Source of the DNA: a virus
Lineage: Duplodnaviria; Caudoviricetes
Reading direction: 5' to 3' (one strand)
Length of the DNA: 61,113 nt
Virus record (IMG/VR): IMGVR_UViG_3300038308_000004
Span: 1-61,113 of that record
Below are positions 42,461-47,202 of the stretch, one piece after another (positions within the stretch are counted from its first letter, which is position 1; each line of letters opens with the position of its first letter). The translations under genes and the position numbers were made by a program. The notes below the pieces were generated by a model. The model ran no database searches. It saw nothing but the letters and a program-made list of their open reading frames with translations, and was not told the origin of the DNA.

Positions 42461-45400
42461 CTACTTAACCCGGGTCTTTCCTCCTCGGAGCCGATCTACC
42501 AGTTCCGAGAGGATCCCGGTTTCCGCTCCGGTCGCCGAGCCTTCGGTGGCCGCATCTACCACTTGGCGCTTAGTCTCGATGAGGCTCATGATCTCCTCGT
42601 CGATGGTCGCCTGACCGAGGAGATACCAGGCCATCACTGAGTCGGTCTGCCCGATCCGGTGGCAGCGGTCCTCAGCCTGGTCATGGGCGGCCGGTGTCCA
42701 CTCCAACTCGATGAAAGCCACATTGGAGGCAGCGGTGAGAGTCAGGCCCACGCCCCCGGCCTTGATGTTGCAGACGATGACCCGGCAGTTCGGGTCCGTC
42801 TGGAACCGATCCACGGCGGCCTGGCGGGCTTCCACCGGCGTCTGGCCGGTGATCGATGGCGCGTTGAAGGCCTGCGCCAGCTCCTCCACCACAACCTGGT
42901 GGTGAGCGAAAATCACGAGCTTCTCCCCGGTCTCCAGGAGGGACTCGACCCACTCCTTGACCGCCTCCATTTTGCCCCGGGCGGCCAGTTGCTTGAGAGC
43001 TTCGATGCGGACCAACTGCTCGGCCCGCGCCGCCGTCTCCTCGGCGCTCATACGATGGTCGGAGATGGCTCGCCGCTGCTCTTCGGGGAGGAGATCGGCC
43101 ACGCTGGCCAGGAAAGCATCCTCTTTTGCGGCCTGCTGCCCCAGCCAGGAGACCACGTCGGCCTGCGCTCGGTCGTATTCACGCCGGTTAGTCAGTTCGA
43201 CCGGGACGATCGTCCGGGTTTTCGGCGGTAGCTCGGAGAGTACCTCCTCCTTCGTCCGGCGGATGTAGCAGCTCGAGCGTAGCTTTTCGTTGAGCTCGTC
43301 CAGGTGGGCGGCTCCCGAGAAATCCCACCCGAAGCGGGTCTTTTGGGCGCAGCAGTACCGCTTCGCGAATTCCCAGAACCCGCCCATCTCCTCCAGGCGA
43401 CCGATAATCTGTAGCTGGCTGAGCAGCTCCTGGGGTCGGTTGAGAACCGGGGTTCCGGTGAGGGCCAGGCGGATGGGGACCTTCTTGGCCAGGTCCTTGG
43501 CGGCCTCCGTGCGGGCGGCCTTGTAGTTCTTGCAATTGGAAACGAGAACACCGTTGGCGAAAAAGTTTTCGTTATCGGCTACGGAGAGGCAATAGACGCG
43601 AGGATCTGGGTTGCCACTTGCTCCAGGTTCTCCATAACCTCCTGATTGGAGAACCTCAACACGGACCACCCGAGAGCGGCCAAAACTTCCATTTTTCGTT
43701 TGTCCAGATATCTCCAACGGCGTGTCTGGTGAGATAGCCCGTCCACTTCGATTGCCAGTTTCCGGGCGGGATCGGCCAAATCCACCTTGTAGGCACTCGG
43801 GAGGGAAGGAAAGAGATGTTTGACTGGTGCAGTTAGAATAGGATATTCCACGGGTAGGTTCAATCTTGCGGAAAGAATCTTCTGGGGTTCGGTCAATTGA
43901 CCGTTGCCCCCACGAGACAGGAATGTCTGTCCCGTTTTGGCCCGCCGCATCTTTTCCACTGTTGCGGGATTTGACATGGGGTTGTTCCGCTTCATTCTTT
44001 CCGATGAAGCCGGATCTTTTTTCCCTCGTCTCAAATTTTGAGCGCAGGCAATTGCTTTCCTGCTCTGTTCTTTCCGGTGAGGCAGGTTCATCCGCCAGGA
44101 AGCAGCACAACTCTGTCCGCAAAATCGACGTTTCACTGACAGCTTGCCTCTTGATGGAAGCTGAAACGGTTTCTTGCACCACTCGCAGGTCTTTTTGATA
44201 AGAGGCTTGCGGAATCTGGCAGAGATGGCTGCTCTGATTTCCGGCCTGCTGTTCGTATATGTCGCCGCACAGCTCCGGCTGCAAAACCTCGCAGTGTGTC
44301 TCCCCTTCGTAGGCGTTTGGAACGGCGCTTGACACAACTTGCAGATACGCGCTACTTTTGAGCGTACCCGCTTCCACGTAGTATCCGTCCTTTGTCCACA
44401 CCGGATGGTCTGCTGTACAGGTAAACTCTCCTTGCTCATGCGCCACCCTCACCAAATCCGCGTAAAGGTTGAATTCAAGCCAATCTTTGATTGGTTTAAA
44501 TTCTAACGCATTATTGGATAAATTACAAGACAAAACAGACACATCAAGCCGACGGGAAACAATTTCTTCTATCGGCAATGGCCCTCGATCCGTCTCTACC
44601 ATCGTTCCGGCAGGGAAACAATAGTGACTCTCATCAAACACCACCGCCTTAAACCCGCACTTCTGCAGGGCCTCCAGGTTTTTCTTTAGGACATCGTAGT
44701 TTAAAATTACGATGTCCGCCTCCTCCGGGATACCGTTTTTGCCGCCATTCACCATGGCCAACCGCTTCCCCGGCAGCCACTTTTCTGCCTCCCGCTTCCA
44801 GTTGAGTTTCAGGGATGCGGGGCAGACGATGCAGGCCGGGAATGCCTGCGCGGCCTGGATGGTGGCCAGAGCCTCAACCGTTTTTCCCAGGCCCATCTCG
44901 TCGCAAATGAAGGCCCGCTTTGCCTCCACCGCGTAGGCCACCCCGGCCTTTTGGAACGGCCGCAGTGTCCCGCCCAGGCCTTCCACCTCTAGCGTGGCCT
45001 CCTTCGCCCGTGACCCTTCCAGGCGCTCGCTGTAGGCCTCCTCCAGAGATTGGACAACCTCGGGCAGGTCTTTGGCCTCAAACCCGTAGGTTTGCGCCCA
45101 CTGCAGCAGCTCCCGGGCACTCTCCCGGGTCAGCTTAAGAGTCCAGGTTTTGGTTTTCGCATCGAACCGAGCCCCGGGGAGGGCCTTGACCCGGTTCACC
45201 ATGGCCGGGTCATAATCGAAATGGATGGTGGCCGTCTGACCACCGGAGAGGGTGATGAACCGGGCAGGCGCGGGGGCGGGCTTGTTAGTGGCCCCCTCGA
45301 TGGCGTTTATCAGTTTGTCCGCAAACTCGAACCGATGGGCCACCGCAAAGTCTAGGAGGGCCTGGGCGTTGGTGGCGTCCAGCTTGAGCCACCAGGCTTT

Positions 45401-45775
45401 TTTCTGTCCGTCAAACCGGGCCCCCGGGAGGGCCTTAATGAGTGTCACCAGGTTTGCATCATAAGGAGAATAGATGCGGGCGTATCCCGCATCATCGATT
45501 GTGATGAGCCGAGCGGGTTTGTCCCCCGACTCAGACTTAGGGGGCTCGGGGATCGCATCATAATCAATCCCTATCCCTGCAAGCTGCCCCCGGTATTTTC
45601 GTAACATGGCCCAGGCGGCCCGGGCCTGCCAGGGGGTCCATTGAGTCTCGGGCTGATCGGCGAGCCAGTGGCCGAACCGGGTGTCCGAACCATTGAACCC
45701 CTGGCCATCCCGAGTGACAGCTCCATCGCATCGGCCCGCGAGGACCTGAACGGCTTGATATAGTAGTGAGTTCAT
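42461..45775 (-). CDS. SNF2/SMARCAL1-like helicase with two HARP-like domains, intein-containing
   Basis: DEMGLGKT, DESH, LTGTP, AGGVGLTLT, QAEDRCHRIGQ; two YD..LV..IKALPGARFD repeats; ATG 45775 after AAGGAGG. Confidence 0.92.
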   Translation of the reverse strand: MNSLLYQAVQVLAGRCDGAVTRDGQGFNGSDTRFGHWLADQPETQWTPWQARAAWAMLRKYRGQLAGIGIDYDAIPEPPKSESGDKPARLITIDDAGYARIYSPYDANLVTLIKALPGARFDGQKKAWWLKLDATNAQALLDFAVAHRFEFADKLINAIEGATNKPAPAPARFITLSGGQTATIHFDYDPAMVNRVKALPGARFDAKTKTWTLKLTRESARELLQWAQTYGFEAKDLPEVVQSLEEAYSERLEGSRAKEATLEVEGLGGTLRPFQKAGVAYAVEAKRAFICDEMGLGKTVEALATIQAAQAFPACIVCPASLKLNWKREAEKWLPGKRLAMVNGGKNGIPEEADIVILNYDVLKKNLEALQKCGFKAVVFDESHYCFPAGTMVETDRGPLPIEEIVSRRLDVSVLSCNLSNNALEFKPIKDWLEFNLYADLVRVAHEQGEFTCTADHPVWTKDGYYVEAGTLKSSAYLQVVSSAVPNAYEGETHCEVLQPELCGDIYEQQAGNQSSHLCQIPQASYQKDLRVVQETVSASIKRQAVSETSILRTELCCFLADEPASPERTEQESNCLRSKFETREKRSGFIGKNEAEQPHVKSRNSGKDAAGQNGTDIPVSWGQRSIDRTPEDSFRKIEPTRGISYSNCTSQTSLSFPPECLQGGFGRSRPETGNRSGRAISPDTPLEISGQTKNGSFGRSRVVRVEVLQSGGYGEPGASGNPDPRVYCLSVADNENFFANGVLVSNCKNYKAARTEAAKDLAKKVPIRLALTGTPVLNRPQELLSQLQIIGRLEEMGGFWEFAKRYCCAQKTRFGWDFSGAAHLDELNEKLRSSCYIRRTKEEVLSELPPKTRTIVPVELTNRREYDRAQADVVSWLGQQAAKEDAFLASVADLLPEEQRRAISDHRMSAEETAARAEQLVRIEALKQLAARGKMEAVKEWVESLLETGEKLVIFAHHQVVVEELAQAFNAPSITGQTPVEARQAAVDRFQTDPNCRVIVCNIKAGGVGLTLTAASNVAFIELEWTPAAHDQAEDRCHRIGQTDSVMAWYLLGQATIDEEIMSLIETKRQVVDAATEGSATGAETGILSELVDRLRGGKTRVK
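43535..44620 (-). mobile_element. intein (362 aa) inserted just after helicase motif II
   Basis: DESHY|CFPAGTMV (block A), CTADHPVW (block B), VYCLSVADNENFFANGVLVSN|C (blocks F/G); removal restores DESHYCKN. Confidence 0.93.
43579..44439 (-). CDS. DUF559/Vsr-like endonuclease with Zn-finger repeats, nested in the +1 frame inside the intein
   Basis: 286-aa ORF; CKLC..F...RFCSRSC and CEWC..F...RFCGQSC; YKVDLA...LAIEVDGLSH...D..K...L...GWSVLRFSNQEV; GGTGAGGG RBS-like sequence upstream. Confidence 0.88.
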   Translation of the reverse strand: MSKESLPVQQTIRCGQRTDTTWKRVRSKVARICKLCQAPFQTPTKGRHTARFCSRSCAATYTNSRPEIRAAISARFRKPLIKKTCEWCKKPFQLPSRGKLSVKRRFCGQSCAASWRMNLPHRKEQSRKAIACAQNLRRGKKDPASSERMKRNNPMSNPATVEKMRRAKTGQTFLSRGGNGQLTEPQKILSARLNLPVEYPILTAPVKHLFPSLPSAYKVDLADPARKLAIEVDGLSHQTRRWRYLDKRKMEVLAALGWSVLRFSNQEVMENLEQVATQILASIASP

Positions 45776-45825
45776 TTTGCCTCCTTTTGTGGGGGAGGGC
45801 AGCCCCTCCCCGTCCTTGGTTCTTA

Positions 45826-47202
45826 CTACTTCTCCGGGGCCTTGAGCTCGCCCCGGTAGGCCCTGCTCCCGATCCCCCAGTGGCTCAGGGCCTTCTTCAC
45901 GGCGTCCGTGATCGCCCCCTTCAGGGCGTCGGCGCCGTCCCCGTTGACGCTGCCCCCGACCACCGGCCCCCGGCAGAACCACTCGCCGGAGTCGAGCCGG
46001 ATCGAGAGCTGCAGGAGGACCATGGCACGGTGGGCCTTTCCGCTGTCGCCCGCCTTCTCAATCTGGTGGTCGAGGATCTCGTACCGCCAGGCATCGAGCC
46101 CCAGCCCCTCGTTGACGGCATCCAGGACGTACTGGGCGCCGTAGCCGGTGAATCCCTTCTGGTCAGTCTCGACGGCAACATTGCCGAAGGAGACCAGGAT
46201 CTCGTTGATCCGGGCGATGCGGACCGTCAGAGCCCGCACCGCCGCCCACTTCCGGGCGGATTCGGCGGTTGCGGCCCGGATCTCGGCGGTCTCCCGCCGG
46301 AGCCTCTCTGTCTCGGCCCGGTAGGCATCGAGCTGCTCCGGGGTCCAGGAGTAGGGGTCGGTGGCCTCCCGTTCGGCCCGGATGGCCCTCGCGACCGCCG
46401 CGTCTCGGGCCAGTTGCTCCCGGCCCGCCTCCCGCATTTGCTCCAGGGCGTCCGCCGAAGCCTCATCAGCACATTCCTGGCAGATGAGCCCGCTGCCCTC
46501 GGGGATCTGCGTGGGGATCATCTCGGAGGCGGGCAGAAGCGCCCCGCACTCCATGCAGGGGTCCAGGGGGTCGCCCGGGGTCAAGGGGATCTCCGCCTCA
46601 GTCTGGGGGGCCATGTCGGCCGCGGGATGGGGAGAGTGTGGAACCTCGATCGCTGGGGCGGTATCGCTGGCGGCCTTGGCCTTGCCCCAGCCGAGCTTGC
46701 GGGCCGCCTCCTGGTCGCCGAACATAGCGGCCGCCTCGAGGCTGATCCGGGCCTTCGGGGAGAGGCCGGGGGCCTCCGCCAGCGCGTCCTGGTCCCCGAG
46801 GGTGGGGTCTGCGCTGGTGGGTGCCTCCACACCGAACGCCCCCAGGATGGCCTCCACCATCCGCTCCCTCTCGGGCCGAGGGTCGGAGGGGATATAGGGA
46901 GTAGCCTCCGGGTAGAGGGTGGGGACCAGCCGGGGAGCCTCCGCTGGCGCTGGCGCGGGCTGAAGGCTCGCCTGGACCGCCAGGATGTGCTTGCAGGTCC
47001 AGGAGGGGTCCGTCTCCCGGTGCTGCCGCTGGTCCTGGCAGGAACAGGACCAGCCCATGGTTGCGCCCATCGTTTCATGGCGGACCTGATGGCGCAGGCC
47101 GGGGCGGCTCTCGCTGGTCACGAGCCAGGTTTCGTGGCCGTGGGGCTCTACGGCTAGAGTTTCGGCCTTGGCCGCTCGTGCGGCCCTTTCTGTTTGGGTC
47201 AT
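45826..47202 (-). CDS. SWIM Zn finger plus Rad52/Sak-family ssDNA annealing protein
   Basis: WSCSCQD...CKHILAV at the N-terminus; YVLDAVNE.LG...W...DALKGAITDAVKKALSHWGIG at the C-terminus. Confidence 0.85.
   Translation of the reverse strand: MTQTERAARAAKAETLAVEPHGHETWLVTSESRPGLRHQVRHETMGATMGWSCSCQDQRQHRETDPSWTCKHILAVQASLQPAPAPAEAPRLVPTLYPEATPYIPSDPRPERERMVEAILGAFGVEAPTSADPTLGDQDALAEAPGLSPKARISLEAAAMFGDQEAARKLGWGKAKAASDTAPAIEVPHSPHPAADMAPQTEAEIPLTPGDPLDPCMECGALLPASEMIPTQIPEGSGLICQECADEASADALEQMREAGREQLARDAAVARAIRAEREATDPYSWTPEQLDAYRAETERLRRETAEIRAATAESARKWAAVRALTVRIARINEILVSFGNVAVETDQKGFTGYGAQYVLDAVNEGLGLDAWRYEILDHQIEKAGDSGKAHRAMVLLQLSIRLDSGEWFCRGPVVGGSVNGDGADALKGAITDAVKKALSHWGIGSRAYRGELKAPEK

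What the first reader, a model, noticed from the sequence alone, without database searches (positions are those of the whole stretch)
43535..44620. Intein whose endonuclease is a separate overlapping gene in the +1 frame (about 860 bp dual-coded)
Seen: a 362-aa intein (C1 CFPAGT, block B TADH, C-terminal VSN, C+1 Cys) sits in helicase motif II and its frame has no stop. Between blocks B and F it has no LAGLIDADG or HNH motifs, only a linker that looks like off-frame sequence. The same DNA read in the +1 frame (44439..43579) is an intact 286-aa protein with its own ATG, an RBS-like GGTGAGGG, two CxxC...FCxxxC fingers and a DUF559/Vsr-like nuclease (VDLA...IEVDGLSH...GWSVLRF). It overlaps blocks B and F themselves. 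Established: canonical mobile inteins carry the homing endonuclease in-frame. Inference: here the nuclease is translated independently, which uncouples homing from splicing. I do not know of a description of this architecture but cannot check the literature.
Basis: partly seen in the sequence, partly recalled or inferred. Interest (0 to 1): 0.93.

Follow-up and report, generated by a model that had tools for sequence, protein, structure and literature searches.

The report
Helicase intein with overlapping out-of-frame endonuclease
A phage helicase gene carries a self-splicing protein insert (intein) whose middle also encodes, one base out of step, a complete separate DNA-cutting "homing" enzyme; the double coding is real and kept by selection, but this kind of intein has already been described.

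Summary
On the minus strand, a HARP/SNF2 helicase gene carries a 362-aa intein (43535-44620) after DESHY. A 286-aa ORF (43579-44439) lies inside it in the +1 frame.

- The ORF is a two-zinc-finger DUF559/Vsr-like nuclease (Pfam 51.3 bits; model pLDDT 91; best fold match I-Bth0305I).
- In the intein frame the model shows two confident Hint lobes joined by 212 disordered residues.
- The intein frame is free of stops by selection: 0 of 20000 synonymous shuffles are stop-free, and about 12.6 stops are expected.
- The same layout, always +1, occurs in 31 further loci (30 distinct): viral contigs, MAG/genome contigs, and cultured Vibrio, Pseudomonas and Corynebacterium phages, where the nuclease is unannotated.
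- Substitutions follow the nuclease frame in the middle and the intein frame at both ends. About 87 nt are constrained in both frames.
- All 80 related helicases examined lack the intein.

Independent translation of the nuclease is inferred, not shown.

The architecture is not new. Out-of-frame intein endonucleases are in print (Gorbalenya 1998, as cited by others; Gosselin et al. 2025; Phillips et al. 2026), and this scan has noted such inteins before on other DNA. My eight searches found no description of this helicase/Vsr-like same-strand version. Interest is moderate.

The parts
42461..45775 (-). Host gene: HARP-SNF2 helicase precursor (1104 codons from the ATG at 45775; the start is chosen by eye, and the ORF is open up to 45982).
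   Evidence: ORF list. Pfam SNF2-rel_dom 9.4e-25, Helicase_C 4.3e-15, HARP 7.1e-07 in two stretches.
44621..44635 (-). Last five N-extein codons, DESHY (helicase motif II); the intein insertion site.
   Evidence: Sequence. 80 of 80 related helicases read DESHY|(A/V/C/L/I)K.. contiguously.
43535..44620 (-). Intein, 362 codons, Cys1 ... Ser-Asn, no stop.
   Evidence: Intein_splicing hit. Hint fold. GC 51% against helicase GC3 of 73-82%.
44327..44620 (-). N-terminal splicing lobe (intein residues 1-98, with block A CFPAGT and block B TADH).
   Evidence: pLDDT about 90, beta-rich. Conserved in the intein frame. Substitutions peak at intein codon position 3.
43691..44326 (-). Shadow linker (intein residues 99-310). 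It is kept open but not conserved, and is predicted disordered.
   Evidence: pLDDT about 30. Mean BLOSUM about 0 in the intein frame. Stop avoidance. Substitutions peak at nuclease codon position 3.
43535..43690 (-). C-terminal splicing lobe (intein residues 311-362; strand SRVVRVEVLQSG, blocks F/G ...VYCLSVADNENFFANGVLVSN).
   Evidence: pLDDT mostly 70-93 (block 331-340: 51); strands 313-324 and 341-361. Conserved in the intein frame.
43532..43534 (-). +1 Cys codon of the C-extein (CKNYK).
   Evidence: The closest intein-less relatives have Ala here.
43579..44439 (-). Nested +1-frame gene: 286-aa zinc-finger / Vsr-like (DUF559, EDxHD-type) putative homing endonuclease, stop codon included.
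44446..44453 (-). Shine-Dalgarno-like GGTGAGGG, 6 nt upstream of the nuclease ATG and written inside intein codons.
   Evidence: Sequence. 5-mer SD in 13 of 31 related loci against a 6% background (confounded).
44500..44528 (-). Sigma-70-like promoter match TTGTAA-17-TAGAAT inside the intein N lobe, 61 nt upstream of the nuclease ATG (consensus match only).
   Evidence: 2 matches in the region; shuffles give a mean of 0.5.
44269..44343 (-). Zinc finger 1 (CxxC...CxxxC, nuclease residues 33-57).
   Evidence: C33, C36 and C53 nearly invariant in 63 sequences. Model strands 28-43.
44107..44187 (-). Zinc finger 2 (CxxC...FCxxxC, nuclease residues 85-111), FCS/MYM-like.
   Evidence: C85, C88, C107 and C111 invariant. 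zf-FCS 0.0014. Profile hit to the FCS finger 2l8e, 9.7e-4.
43975..43998 (-). RMKRNNPM motif (nuclease residues 148-155). It is shared with HNH-type relatives and is probably a DNA-binding module.
   Evidence: N153 nearly invariant; R148 invariant. Also present in L010-L012. PHROG HNH/homing endonuclease hits on this part.
43591..43794 (-). Vsr-like catalytic domain (nuclease residues 216-283; D220, E231, D233 and H237 invariant).
   Evidence: Pfam DUF559. Invariant columns. Foldseek 3r3p/3hrl/1vsr. Profile against 3hrl 6.2e-15 and 3r3p 6.3e-4.
43588..43674 (-). About 87 nt where both frames encode structured, conserved protein: nuclease last strand and helices (LGWSVLRFSNQEVMENLEQV...) over intein strand VVRVEVLQSG...
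   Evidence: Substitutions are reduced at all three codon positions (0.33/0.18/0.21).

Best explanation
This is a mobile intein of a recently described non-canonical type.

A class-1 Hint splicing domain sits in motif II of a phage HARP/SNF2 helicase. At the usual endonuclease insertion point between its two lobes lies a free-standing-type homing endonuclease gene: two zinc fingers, an RMKRNNPM module and a Vsr-like/EDxHD nuclease. The gene is on the same strand but one base out of step.

Likely mechanism (inferred):
- The helicase mRNA is read straight through in frame 0. This gives a precursor in which the two intein lobes are joined by about 212 residues of meaningless, disordered 'shadow' peptide.
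- The lobes dock and splice out, restoring DESHY-CKN.
- The nuclease is made separately from its own ATG, from the same mRNA or from an internal promoter.
- It cuts intein-less alleles of the helicase during co-infection, so that repair copies the intein and the nuclease gene together.

Selection acts on three things: the nuclease protein in the middle, the splicing lobes at the ends, and the absence of stops in frame 0 throughout. The nuclease's C-terminal strand and helices share about 87 nt with the first strand of the C-terminal intein lobe.
For: Shown in the window:
- Both ORFs are present.
- Stop avoidance in the window: 0 of 75 risk contexts have T; 0 of 20000 shuffles are stop-free.
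- DUF559 hit at 51.3 bits.
- Nuclease model pLDDT 91.3, with residues 1-24 low. Top Foldseek hits are I-Bth0305I (3r3p, E 2.9e-3, TMt 0.62) and 3hrl (TMt 0.72); Vsr (1vsr, 1cw0) lies lower, at ranks 15 and 21. Profile against 3hrl is 6.2e-15 and against 3r3p 6.3e-4.
- Intein-frame model: residues 1-98 about 90 pLDDT; 311-362 mostly 70-93, dipping to 51 at 331-340; residues 99-310 about 30. 41 PDB matches at E<=1e-3; nearly all of the listed ones are intein/Hint-fold domains.

Shown in relatives:
- 8 of 13 viral loci (7 distinct) are nested in +1.
- 5 of 5 examined GenBank phage groups, out of 40 records, are nested in +1.
- 19 of 19 genome-contig loci with a long nuclease match are nested in +1.
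- All 32 loci (31 distinct, window included) have intein junctions in motif II, and the nuclease stop lies 8-50 nt before the intein end in 31 of them.
- No T in any risk context in 32 of 32. Stop-free shuffles: 0/1000 in 30, 2/1000 and 76/1000 in the other two.

Frame-specific conservation:
- Per-column conservation supports the frame split.
- In 10 pairs, the mismatch fraction by intein codon position 1/2/3 is 0.34/0.28/0.58 in the N lobe, 0.54/0.30/0.28 in the middle, 0.33/0.18/0.21 in the overlap with the C lobe, and 0.16/0.10/0.58 after the nuclease stop.

Other evidence:
- Start codon before the first CxxC in 31 of 31 distinct loci (ATG 28, TTG 2, GTG 1). 5-mer SD in 13 of 31 against a 6% background.
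- Mobility: 80 of 80 related helicases lack the intein. Intein GC is 51% against extein GC3 of 73-82%. The window's nuclease groups with copies in about 2100-aa proteins of Chloroflexota MAGs, at a site one residue away.
- The best 150 of 2248 family hits are all 138-441 aa, and none sits inside a long protein.
Against: - There are no expression data. No RNA run holds the stretch, and translation of the nested ORF, splicing and cleavage are all untested.
- The SD enrichment is confounded. GAGGT is the Glu-Val codon pair of a conserved intein strand, and the loci are related.
- Splicing has to tolerate a 212-residue disordered insert and a penultimate Ser (VSN) instead of His.
- The genome-contig scan used a pattern (GW[SKT]VLRFSN) that lies in the dual-coded stretch, so '19 of 19' is biased towards the nested clade. 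12 of the 40 loci were not examined.
- The window's nearest relative is only 46-54% identical. The substitution test therefore rests on other members, with 10 non-independent pairs.
- Two database gene calls (P0016, P0147) have the N-terminal intein lobe in frame with the nuclease. Other expression routes may therefore exist in the family.
Confidence: 0.85

Rival explanations
1. Artefact or broken gene: a canonical intein with an in-frame endonuclease that appears out of frame because of two compensating indels (sequencing or assembly errors, or recent mutations).
For: In-frame versions of a distantly related nuclease do exist inside inteins of another host protein (L010, L011). Only one sample holds the window's DNA.
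Against: - The same +1 relation is seen in 31 other loci (30 distinct) from different assemblies and cultured phages.
- Stops are avoided across about 860 nt in each, which errors cannot produce.
- The nuclease frame is closed 1-46 codons upstream of its start in every locus.
- A second assembly is identical.
- The in-frame forms are a distant branch.
Confidence: 0.02
2. The nested ORF is real but is expressed by programmed +1 ribosomal frameshifting (or translational coupling) from the helicase/intein frame, giving an N-extein-IntN-nuclease fusion rather than a free protein.
For: - Gene calls P0016 and P0147 fuse the N-terminal intein lobe in frame to the nuclease.
- SD-like motifs are absent upstream of the start in 18 of 31 loci.
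- The first 24-30 residues of the window's nuclease are unconserved shadow of block B.
Against: - A start codon lies between the upstream stop and the first zinc finger in 31 of 31 distinct loci, and 28 are ATG.
- The window for a shift is only 1-46 codons and sits at different intein positions (offsets -5 to 295 nt). I did not look for a common slippery motif.
- A free-standing member (L009) has the same protein without any intein.
Confidence: 0.08
3. The element works as a split intein, a 'fractured gene' in disguise. Read-through of the linker is unimportant, and the C-terminal intein lobe plus C-extein is translated separately, as in the loci of Dassa et al. 2009.
For: - The nuclease 3' end overlaps the start of the C-terminal lobe, as in 15 fractured loci with 6-69 bp overlaps (Dassa 2009 passages).
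- The nuclease family is the same Vsr-like type.
- A GTG codon stands at the first Val of VVRVEVL (read).
Against: - The host frame is stop-free across the nuclease gene in 32 of 32 loci, far beyond chance. That is explained only if read-through matters.
- GenBank annotators and ORF calls find one continuous helicase ORF.
Confidence: 0.04
4. The nuclease gene is a decaying passenger that no longer homes. Only the open host frame is under selection.
For: - Remnant copies exist (L046: 87-aa open stretch; L055: 28 residues matched).
- The homing cycle predicts decay after fixation (Gosselin 2025, passages).
Against: - The ORF is intact in 32 of 32 nested loci.
- D220, E231, D233, H237 and four zinc-finger cysteines are invariant in 63 sequences.
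- Substitutions in the middle concentrate at nuclease codon position 3.
- Model confidence is 91.
- The intein is absent from all 80 related helicases, so it is not fixed.
Confidence: 0.05

Closest known systems
Non-canonical actinobacteriophage inteins (Gosselin, Arsenault & Gogarten, bioRxiv 10.1101/2025.01.02.630785; abstract, sections 8 and 15 and passages read)
   Same: - A contiguous intein whose homing endonuclease is encoded outside the intein's reading frame.
- The in-frame stretch has no recognisable fold.
- Origin proposed by invasion of an intein by a free-standing endonuclease gene.
- A Vsr-like/EDxHD endonuclease is among the types.
   Different: - Their Vsr-like endonuclease is on the antisense strand. 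Their same-strand case is endonuclease VII-like, in frame 3.
- Their hosts are DNA polymerase, minor capsid, terminase and thymidylate synthase, not helicases.
- They state that the second ORFs typically lie outside the splicing domain. Here the ORF starts upstream of block B and ends in block F, with about 87 nt functional in both frames.
Cyanobacterial dnaX intein with an out-of-frame LAGLIDADG endonuclease (Phillips, DeSimone & Gogarten, bioRxiv 10.64898/2026.09.14.751524; abstract and sections 11 and 17 read; they credit Gorbalenya 1998, which I could not fetch)
   Same: - A same-strand overlapping ORF between the splicing lobes.
- A disordered in-frame linker.
- Shine-Dalgarno motifs before the nested start.
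- Purifying selection follows the endonuclease frame.
- Sporadic distribution with intein-free alleles.
   Different: - The endonuclease is LAGLIDADG, in the +2 ORF.
- The setting is a cellular gene of cyanobacteria.
- Here the endonuclease is Vsr-like with zinc fingers, in +1, in phage/prophage SF2 helicases across many phyla.
Fractured genes: split inteins with a free-standing Vsr-like or GIY-YIG endonuclease gene between the halves (Dassa et al. 2009, PMC2677866; abstract and passages read)
   Same: - The same endonuclease type (Vsr-like) sits at the same place in the intein.
- It has its own expression signals.
- Its 3' end overlaps the coding sequence of the C-terminal intein part.
- It is mainly found in phage DNA-metabolism genes.
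   Different: There the host gene is broken into two ORFs and must trans-splice. Here the upstream frame never stops, so the intein stays contiguous (cis-splicing). That paper states that Vsr-like endonucleases were not then known in inteins.
[quoted passage not shown] 2011, PMC3239194; abstract and passages read)
   Same: - A C-terminal Vsr-like catalytic domain: best structural match and profile match at 6.3e-4.
- N-terminal DNA-binding modules.
- A phage mobile element.
   Different: - I-Bth0305I lies in a group I intron and has NUMOD/HTH modules.
- This protein has two Cys4 FCS-like fingers and an RMKRNNPM motif, and is closer in sequence to DUF559 (3hrl, 6.2e-15).
ShiLan-type out-of-frame HNH insertions in phage methylases (Arsenault et al. 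2025, PMC11855218; abstract read)
   Same: An endonuclease gene hidden in an alternative frame of an insertion that leaves the host frame open.
   Different: No splicing domain is found there. Here a complete intein surrounds the nuclease.

Membership tests
Intein (class 1, Hint fold) | Nucleophile at position 1, block B TxxH, C-terminal Asn, and a nucleophile at +1. | tested here: met
   Cys1, TADH at residues 69-72, Asn362, +1 Cys. The penultimate residue is Ser, not His; 13 of the 32 loci also read SN.
Intein (class 1, Hint fold) | Hint fold of the splicing domain. | tested here: met
   Model residues 1-98 have pLDDT about 90 and residues 311-362 mostly 70-93. Foldseek: Mtu RecA mini-intein 2.2e-6 and 41 matches at E<=1e-3, nearly all intein/Hint-fold domains. 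Pfam Intein_splicing is below its cutoff (32.9 against 35.8).
Intein (class 1, Hint fold) | Precise in-frame insertion relative to intein-less homologues. | tested here: met
   80 of 80 related helicases read DESHY followed directly by xKN.
Intein (class 1, Hint fold) | Protein splicing activity. | not testable with these tools
   Inferred from the open frame under selection and the conserved blocks.
Non-canonical intein with an endonuclease in an overlapping alternative frame | Complete endonuclease ORF between the splicing lobes in a frame other than the intein's, with the intein frame uninterrupted. | tested here: met
   Recurs in 32 of 32 loci.
Non-canonical intein with an endonuclease in an overlapping alternative frame | Purifying selection follows the endonuclease frame in the overlap, and the in-frame linker is unstructured. 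| tested here: met
   (relatives). (pLDDT about 30 for residues 99-310).
Non-canonical intein with an endonuclease in an overlapping alternative frame | Separate translation of the endonuclease. | tested here: inconclusive
   A start codon is present in 31 of 31 distinct loci and an SD-like 5-mer in 13 of 31. There are no expression data.
DUF559 (PF04480) / Vsr-like nuclease superfamily | Pfam profile match above the gathering score. | tested here: met
   51.3 bits against 20.6, residues 216-283.
EDxHD homing endonucleases (I-Bth0305I type) | Vsr-like catalytic fold. | tested here: met
   Foldseek rank 1-2 is 3r3p (E 2.9e-3, probability 1.00, TMt 0.62). 1vsr and 1cw0 rank lower. No match reached E<=1e-3.
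EDxHD homing endonucleases (I-Bth0305I type) | Composite catalytic motif E, D, H, D. | tested here: inconclusive
   D220, E231, D233 and H237 are invariant and D246 nearly so in 63 sequences. The residue-by-residue mapping to I-Bth0305I is unclear, because the crystallised chain carries active-site mutations and the His column is offset in the HMMER alignment.
EDxHD homing endonucleases (I-Bth0305I type) | N-terminal NUMOD/HTH DNA-binding modules. | tested here: not met
   The N-terminal part has two Cys4 fingers (FCS-like) and RMKRNNPM. No NUMOD family was reported by Pfam at E<=1.
EDxHD homing endonucleases (I-Bth0305I type) | Site-specific cleavage of the element-free allele. | not testable with these tools
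   -
Fractured gene (Dassa et al. 2009) | Host gene split into two ORFs by a stop after the N-terminal intein part. | tested here: not met
   There is no stop in the host frame. The same holds in 32 of 32 loci.

The most novel reading that the evidence does not exclude
The overlap may be a lock rather than an accident of insertion. The nuclease's indispensable last strand and helices are written on the same roughly 87 nt as the first strand of the intein's C-terminal lobe, and its start signals sit inside the N-terminal lobe. If so, neither partner can be deleted or decay without damaging the other. That would slow the 'degeneration' step of the homing cycle. It would explain why one overprinted intein-endonuclease unit has stayed intact while hopping between at least three adjacent positions of motif II (DE^C, DExH^C, DExHY^C) in unrelated SF2 helicases, in phages and prophages of many phyla.
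Probability: 0.25. Interest if true: 0.6.

Novelty: new variant of a known kind. Interest (0 to 1): 0.4.

Why it matters
- **Annotation.** The nuclease gene is missing from the GenBank records of the cultured phages I examined (CP-T1 gp10, phi673 gp43, MR14 gp44, Vibrio phages 1.088.O and 104E43.1). Gene callers that forbid long same-strand overlaps will miss the whole family.
- **Evolution.** The family links three states of one endonuclease lineage: free-standing beside an intein-less helicase (L009), nested out of frame in a contiguous intein (this case), and in frame in an intein (L010/L011). That is the series of intermediates proposed for how inteins gain endonucleases and how split inteins arise (Dassa 2009; Gosselin 2025).
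- **Overlapping genes.** It is a clear natural example in which one frame is selected only for the absence of stops.
- **Practical use.** The splicing lobes tolerate a linker of 200 residues or more, and the nuclease is a compact zinc-finger/Vsr-like enzyme. Both may interest protein engineers.

None of this overturns current understanding.

Tried and rejected
I could not see the genomic context of the 150 best family hits, so the share of the 2248 family members that are nested is unknown.
- **Alignment A2** was too diverse for the search for related loci (error). A smaller alignment, A3, worked, but its only pattern lies in the dual-coded stretch, which biases the result.
- **Metagenome scan with P0016**, to find the contig of an 'IntN fused in frame to nuclease' form, gave 1 irrelevant locus (L140). 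Whether P0016 and P0147 are real variants or frameshift errors stays open.
- **Megablast of the helicase region** against GenBank phages: no match.
- **Own record:** the nuclease has no second copy in the 61-kb provirus record.
- **Sequencing runs:** no RNA holder is listed. One DNA run, probably the source sample, holds the stretch. Its contig is identical, so it is not independent support.
- **RNA fold around the nuclease start (44405-44500):** a hairpin pairs the SD, but z = -1.36 and 17 of 200 shuffles fold as well. No evidence for a regulatory hairpin.
- **Promoter-like site at 44528-44500:** a consensus match only.
- **Single-sequence PDB search:** only weak hits (3hrl 0.0019, 3r3p 0.37). 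The profile search was needed.
- **PHROGs:** no family for the intein frame.
- **Gorbalenya 1998 (PMC147447)** is not held. I know it only through citations.
- **Literature searches for this exact version** found the general architecture, but no description of a same-strand Vsr-like endonuclease nested in helicase inteins. The supplements of the papers are closed, and the tables of Gosselin et al. might list such cases.
- **Rows dropped:**
  - L005 (identical to L004 in the region) and L026 (intein DNA identical to L002) were counted once.
  - 12 of the 40 genome-contig loci (L042, L044, L045, L047, L050-L054, L056-L058; short DUF559-only matches) were not examined.
  - The tree used 31 nested loci plus L009, L010 and L011.


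Full report
**1. The observation**

On the minus strand an ORF (42461..45982; likely start at the ATG at 45775) encodes a helicase. It has two HARP repeats, an SNF2 N-domain and Helicase_C.

After DESHY of motif II the reading continues CFPAGTMVETDRG... TADH ... VYCLSVADNENFFANGVLVSN, followed by CKNYK. This is 362 codons (43535-44620) without a stop.

One base out of step lies a second ORF. An ATG at 44439, preceded by GGTGAGGG and six bases, opens a 286-codon ORF that ends at the TAG at 43581-43579. The third frame has 16 stops.

The ATG sits at intein residue 61, upstream of block B. The stop lies on residues 347-348, inside block F.

Pfam results:
- The +1 protein hits DUF559 at 51.3 bits (cutoff 20.6).
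- The intein frame hits only Intein_splicing, and no endonuclease family.

**2. Is it more than chance?**

A stop arises in the intein frame whenever a nuclease codon ending in T is followed by one starting AA, AG or GA.
- There are 75 such contexts and none has T, against 26% T at other third positions.
- 0 of 20000 synonymous-codon shuffles of the nuclease gene leave the intein frame open (3-25 stops, mode 12-13).

A second assembly of the one public run that holds this DNA, probably its source, is identical over 43300-44900, with no gaps.

The intein is compositionally foreign: GC is 51% against extein GC3 of 73-82%.

**3. What the two frames encode**

*The +1 protein.* With a 63-sequence alignment it folds with mean pLDDT 91.3. 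Only residues 1-24, the part lying over block B, are uncertain. It has:
- two Cys4 fingers (C85, C88, C107 and C111 invariant; C33, C36 and C53 nearly so);
- an RMKRNNPM motif;
- a C-terminal nuclease domain with invariant D220, E231, D233 and H237.

Foldseek ranks the catalytic domain of the homing endonuclease I-Bth0305I first (3r3p, E 2.9e-3, TMt 0.62). A DUF559 protein follows (3hrl, TMt 0.72), with E. coli Vsr lower at ranks 15 and 21. No match reaches 1e-3. A profile of the alignment matches 3hrl at 6.2e-15, 3r3p at 6.3e-4 and an FCS zinc finger at 9.7e-4.

*The intein frame.* Folded with eight relatives, it gives:
- an N lobe (residues 1-98) with pLDDT about 90;
- a C lobe (residues 311-362) with pLDDT mostly 70-93, dipping to 51 at 331-340;
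- a 212-residue stretch between them with pLDDT about 30.

The model matches mini-inteins: Mtu RecA is at 2.2e-6, and there are 41 matches at E<=1e-3, nearly all of the listed ones intein/Hint-fold domains.

**4. Relatives**

The nuclease family is large. There are 2248 representatives at E<=1e-3, and the best 150 are all 138-441 aa, so none sits inside a long protein.

*Viral contigs.* 13 loci encode a relative.
- In 8 (7 distinct) it lies in the +1 frame of a long open frame of 687-2546 codons, with intein blocks on both sides.
- 2 (L010, L011) carry a distant version in frame inside an intein of another protein.
- 1 (L009) is free-standing and overlaps the start of an intein-less DECH helicase.
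- 2 share only the N-terminal modules.

*GenBank phages.* 40 records match, and in each the annotated feature under the match is a helicase or a hypothetical protein. I examined one record of each of five groups: Vibrio phage CP-T1, Corynebacterium phage phi673, Pseudomonas phage MR14, and Vibrio phages 1.088.O and 104E43.1. In all five the match is in the +1 frame of the annotated CDS, inside an intein DE|CF(P/V)AGT...HN|CHH. The nuclease is not annotated.

*Genome and MAG contigs.* 19 of 19 loci with a long match are nested in the same way, in hosts of 771-2521 codons from many phyla. The search pattern lies in the dual-coded stretch, so this count is biased, and 12 weak loci were not examined.

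*All 32 loci together* (31 distinct, window included):
- The intein sits in motif II: after DE in 26 rows (25 distinct), after DExH in 5, and after DESHY in the window only.
- The nuclease stop lies 8-50 nt before the intein end in 31 rows; L029 runs 40 nt beyond it.
- None of the 32 has a T in any risk context. Stop-free shuffles are 0/1000 in 30 loci, 2/1000 in L016 and 76/1000 in the GC-rich L033 (also 0/3000 for nine rows).

**5. Which frame is selected where**

*Column conservation across 31 sequences.*
- The intein frame is conserved over nt 0-270 and 945-1086 of the intein, and near zero between.
- The nuclease frame is conserved strongly over nt 585-990, moderately at the fingers, and not at all in its first 30 residues.
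- Over 43631-43675 both frames are conserved.

*Mismatch fractions at intein codon positions 1/2/3, in ten pairs with 55-76% nuclease identity.*

| Region | Pos 1 | Pos 2 | Pos 3 |
|---|---|---|---|
| N lobe | 0.34 | 0.28 | 0.58 |
| Middle | 0.54 | 0.30 | 0.28 |
| Overlap with C lobe | 0.33 | 0.18 | 0.21 |
| After the nuclease stop | 0.16 | 0.10 | 0.58 |

In the middle, wobble falls on intein position 1, which is nuclease position 3. The pairs are not independent, and none includes the window, whose nearest relatives are 46-54% identical.

**6. Mobility**

112 related helicases were found in viral contigs, and the best 80 were kept. All 80 read DESHY followed directly by (A/V/C/L/I)K.., without an intein. 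One was flagged by my regular expression but is contiguous by eye.

In the nuclease tree the window groups (89/76) with three Chloroflexota MAG copies. These sit after DEFH in about 2100-aa proteins, within a 100/100 clade of 11 rows.
- The DExH site needs at least two origins.
- The free-standing L009 nests among the nested copies.
- The in-frame forms are a distant branch.

This fits an element that moves between related motif-II sites.

**7. Expression (inferred)**

- Every distinct locus has a start codon between the upstream stop of the nuclease frame and the first finger: ATG 28, TTG 2, GTG 1 of 31. The window has only this one candidate (read).
- A 5-mer Shine-Dalgarno core lies 5-20 nt upstream in 13 of 31 loci, against 6% of positions in the host ORFs. 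GAGGT is also the Glu-Val codon pair of a conserved intein strand, so this is suggestive only.
- A sigma-70-like match lies 61 nt upstream, inside the AT-rich N lobe.
- A hairpin over the SD is not significant.
- No RNA run is listed.

**8. Comparison with what is known**

- Dassa et al. 2009 (abstract and passages) described free-standing Vsr-like endonuclease genes between the halves of split inteins, overlapping the downstream half by 6-69 bp. They stated that such endonucleases were not known in inteins.
- Taylor et al. 2011 (passages) characterised I-Bth0305I and named the EDxHD family.
- Gosselin et al. 2025 (abstract, sections 8 and 15, passages) reported actinophage inteins with antisense LAGLIDADG, antisense Vsr-like and same-strand frame-3 endonuclease VII-like genes, in four non-helicase hosts.
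- Phillips et al. 2026 (abstract, sections 11 and 17) showed a same-strand +2 LAGLIDADG ORF in the cyanobacterial dnaX intein, with a disordered in-frame linker, SD motifs and frame-specific selection. They credit the idea to Gorbalenya 1998, which is not held.

So the kind is known. What my eight searches did not find in print is this version: a same-strand +1 Vsr-like zinc-finger endonuclease in SF2/SNF2 helicase motif-II inteins, with a conserved functional overlap onto the C-terminal splicing lobe.

This scan's own notes list 122 findings in at least 119 genomes that share these key words. They include phage helicase inteins with out-of-frame endonucleases judged real and known in kind. 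None shares sequence words with this nuclease.

**9. Verdict**

It is best filed as a new variant of a known kind: the contiguous-intein counterpart of the 'fractured gene'. It has practical value for annotation and as a well-sampled model of an overlap in which one frame is selected only to stay open. Interest 0.4.

Noticed in passing
L009:3980-6272: A free-standing homologue of the nuclease (228 aa) overlaps by 83 nt the start of an intein-less helicase of the DECH type. This is the same endonuclease lineage beside, rather than inside, its presumed target gene.
   Followed up: partly
L010:3329-6958 and L011:1-1335: A distant version of the same endonuclease (finger, RMKRNNPM, Vsr-like domain) lies in frame inside an intein (C...VVHN|C) of a different, unidentified phage protein. 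This is a canonical in-frame Vsr-like intein endonuclease.
   Followed up: partly
L012:1079-2044: The same N-terminal finger and RMKRNNPM modules are joined to an HNH-like C-terminus instead of the Vsr-like domain, which suggests modular exchange of the nuclease head.
   Followed up: no
P0016 and P0147: Two database gene calls have an N-terminal intein lobe (one in a clamp-loader-like ATPase, YILDE|CFHEN) fused in frame to the nuclease. They could be fractured-gene forms or frameshift errors. Their contigs could not be fetched.
   Followed up: partly
L014-L018 (GenBank NC_019457.1, NC_042354.1, MT104474.1, MG592463.1, MW824411.1): In five cultured phages neither the intein nor the nested nuclease is annotated. 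The helicase CDS is annotated as one protein of 836-993 aa.
   Followed up: yes
L029:3264-4280; L032:4183: Two exceptions. In L029 the nuclease ORF runs 40 nt beyond the intein end into the C-extein. In L032 the +1 residue is Ser, not Cys.
   Followed up: no
L046 and L055: Helicase inteins in which only a short remnant of the nuclease frame matches (an 87-aa open stretch; 28 residues). These are possible decayed copies.
   Followed up: no
window 44621-45775 (-): The helicase has two HARP repeats before the SNF2 domain, the layout of annealing helicases of the SMARCAL1 type (layout recalled; Pfam HARP 7.1e-07).
   Followed up: no
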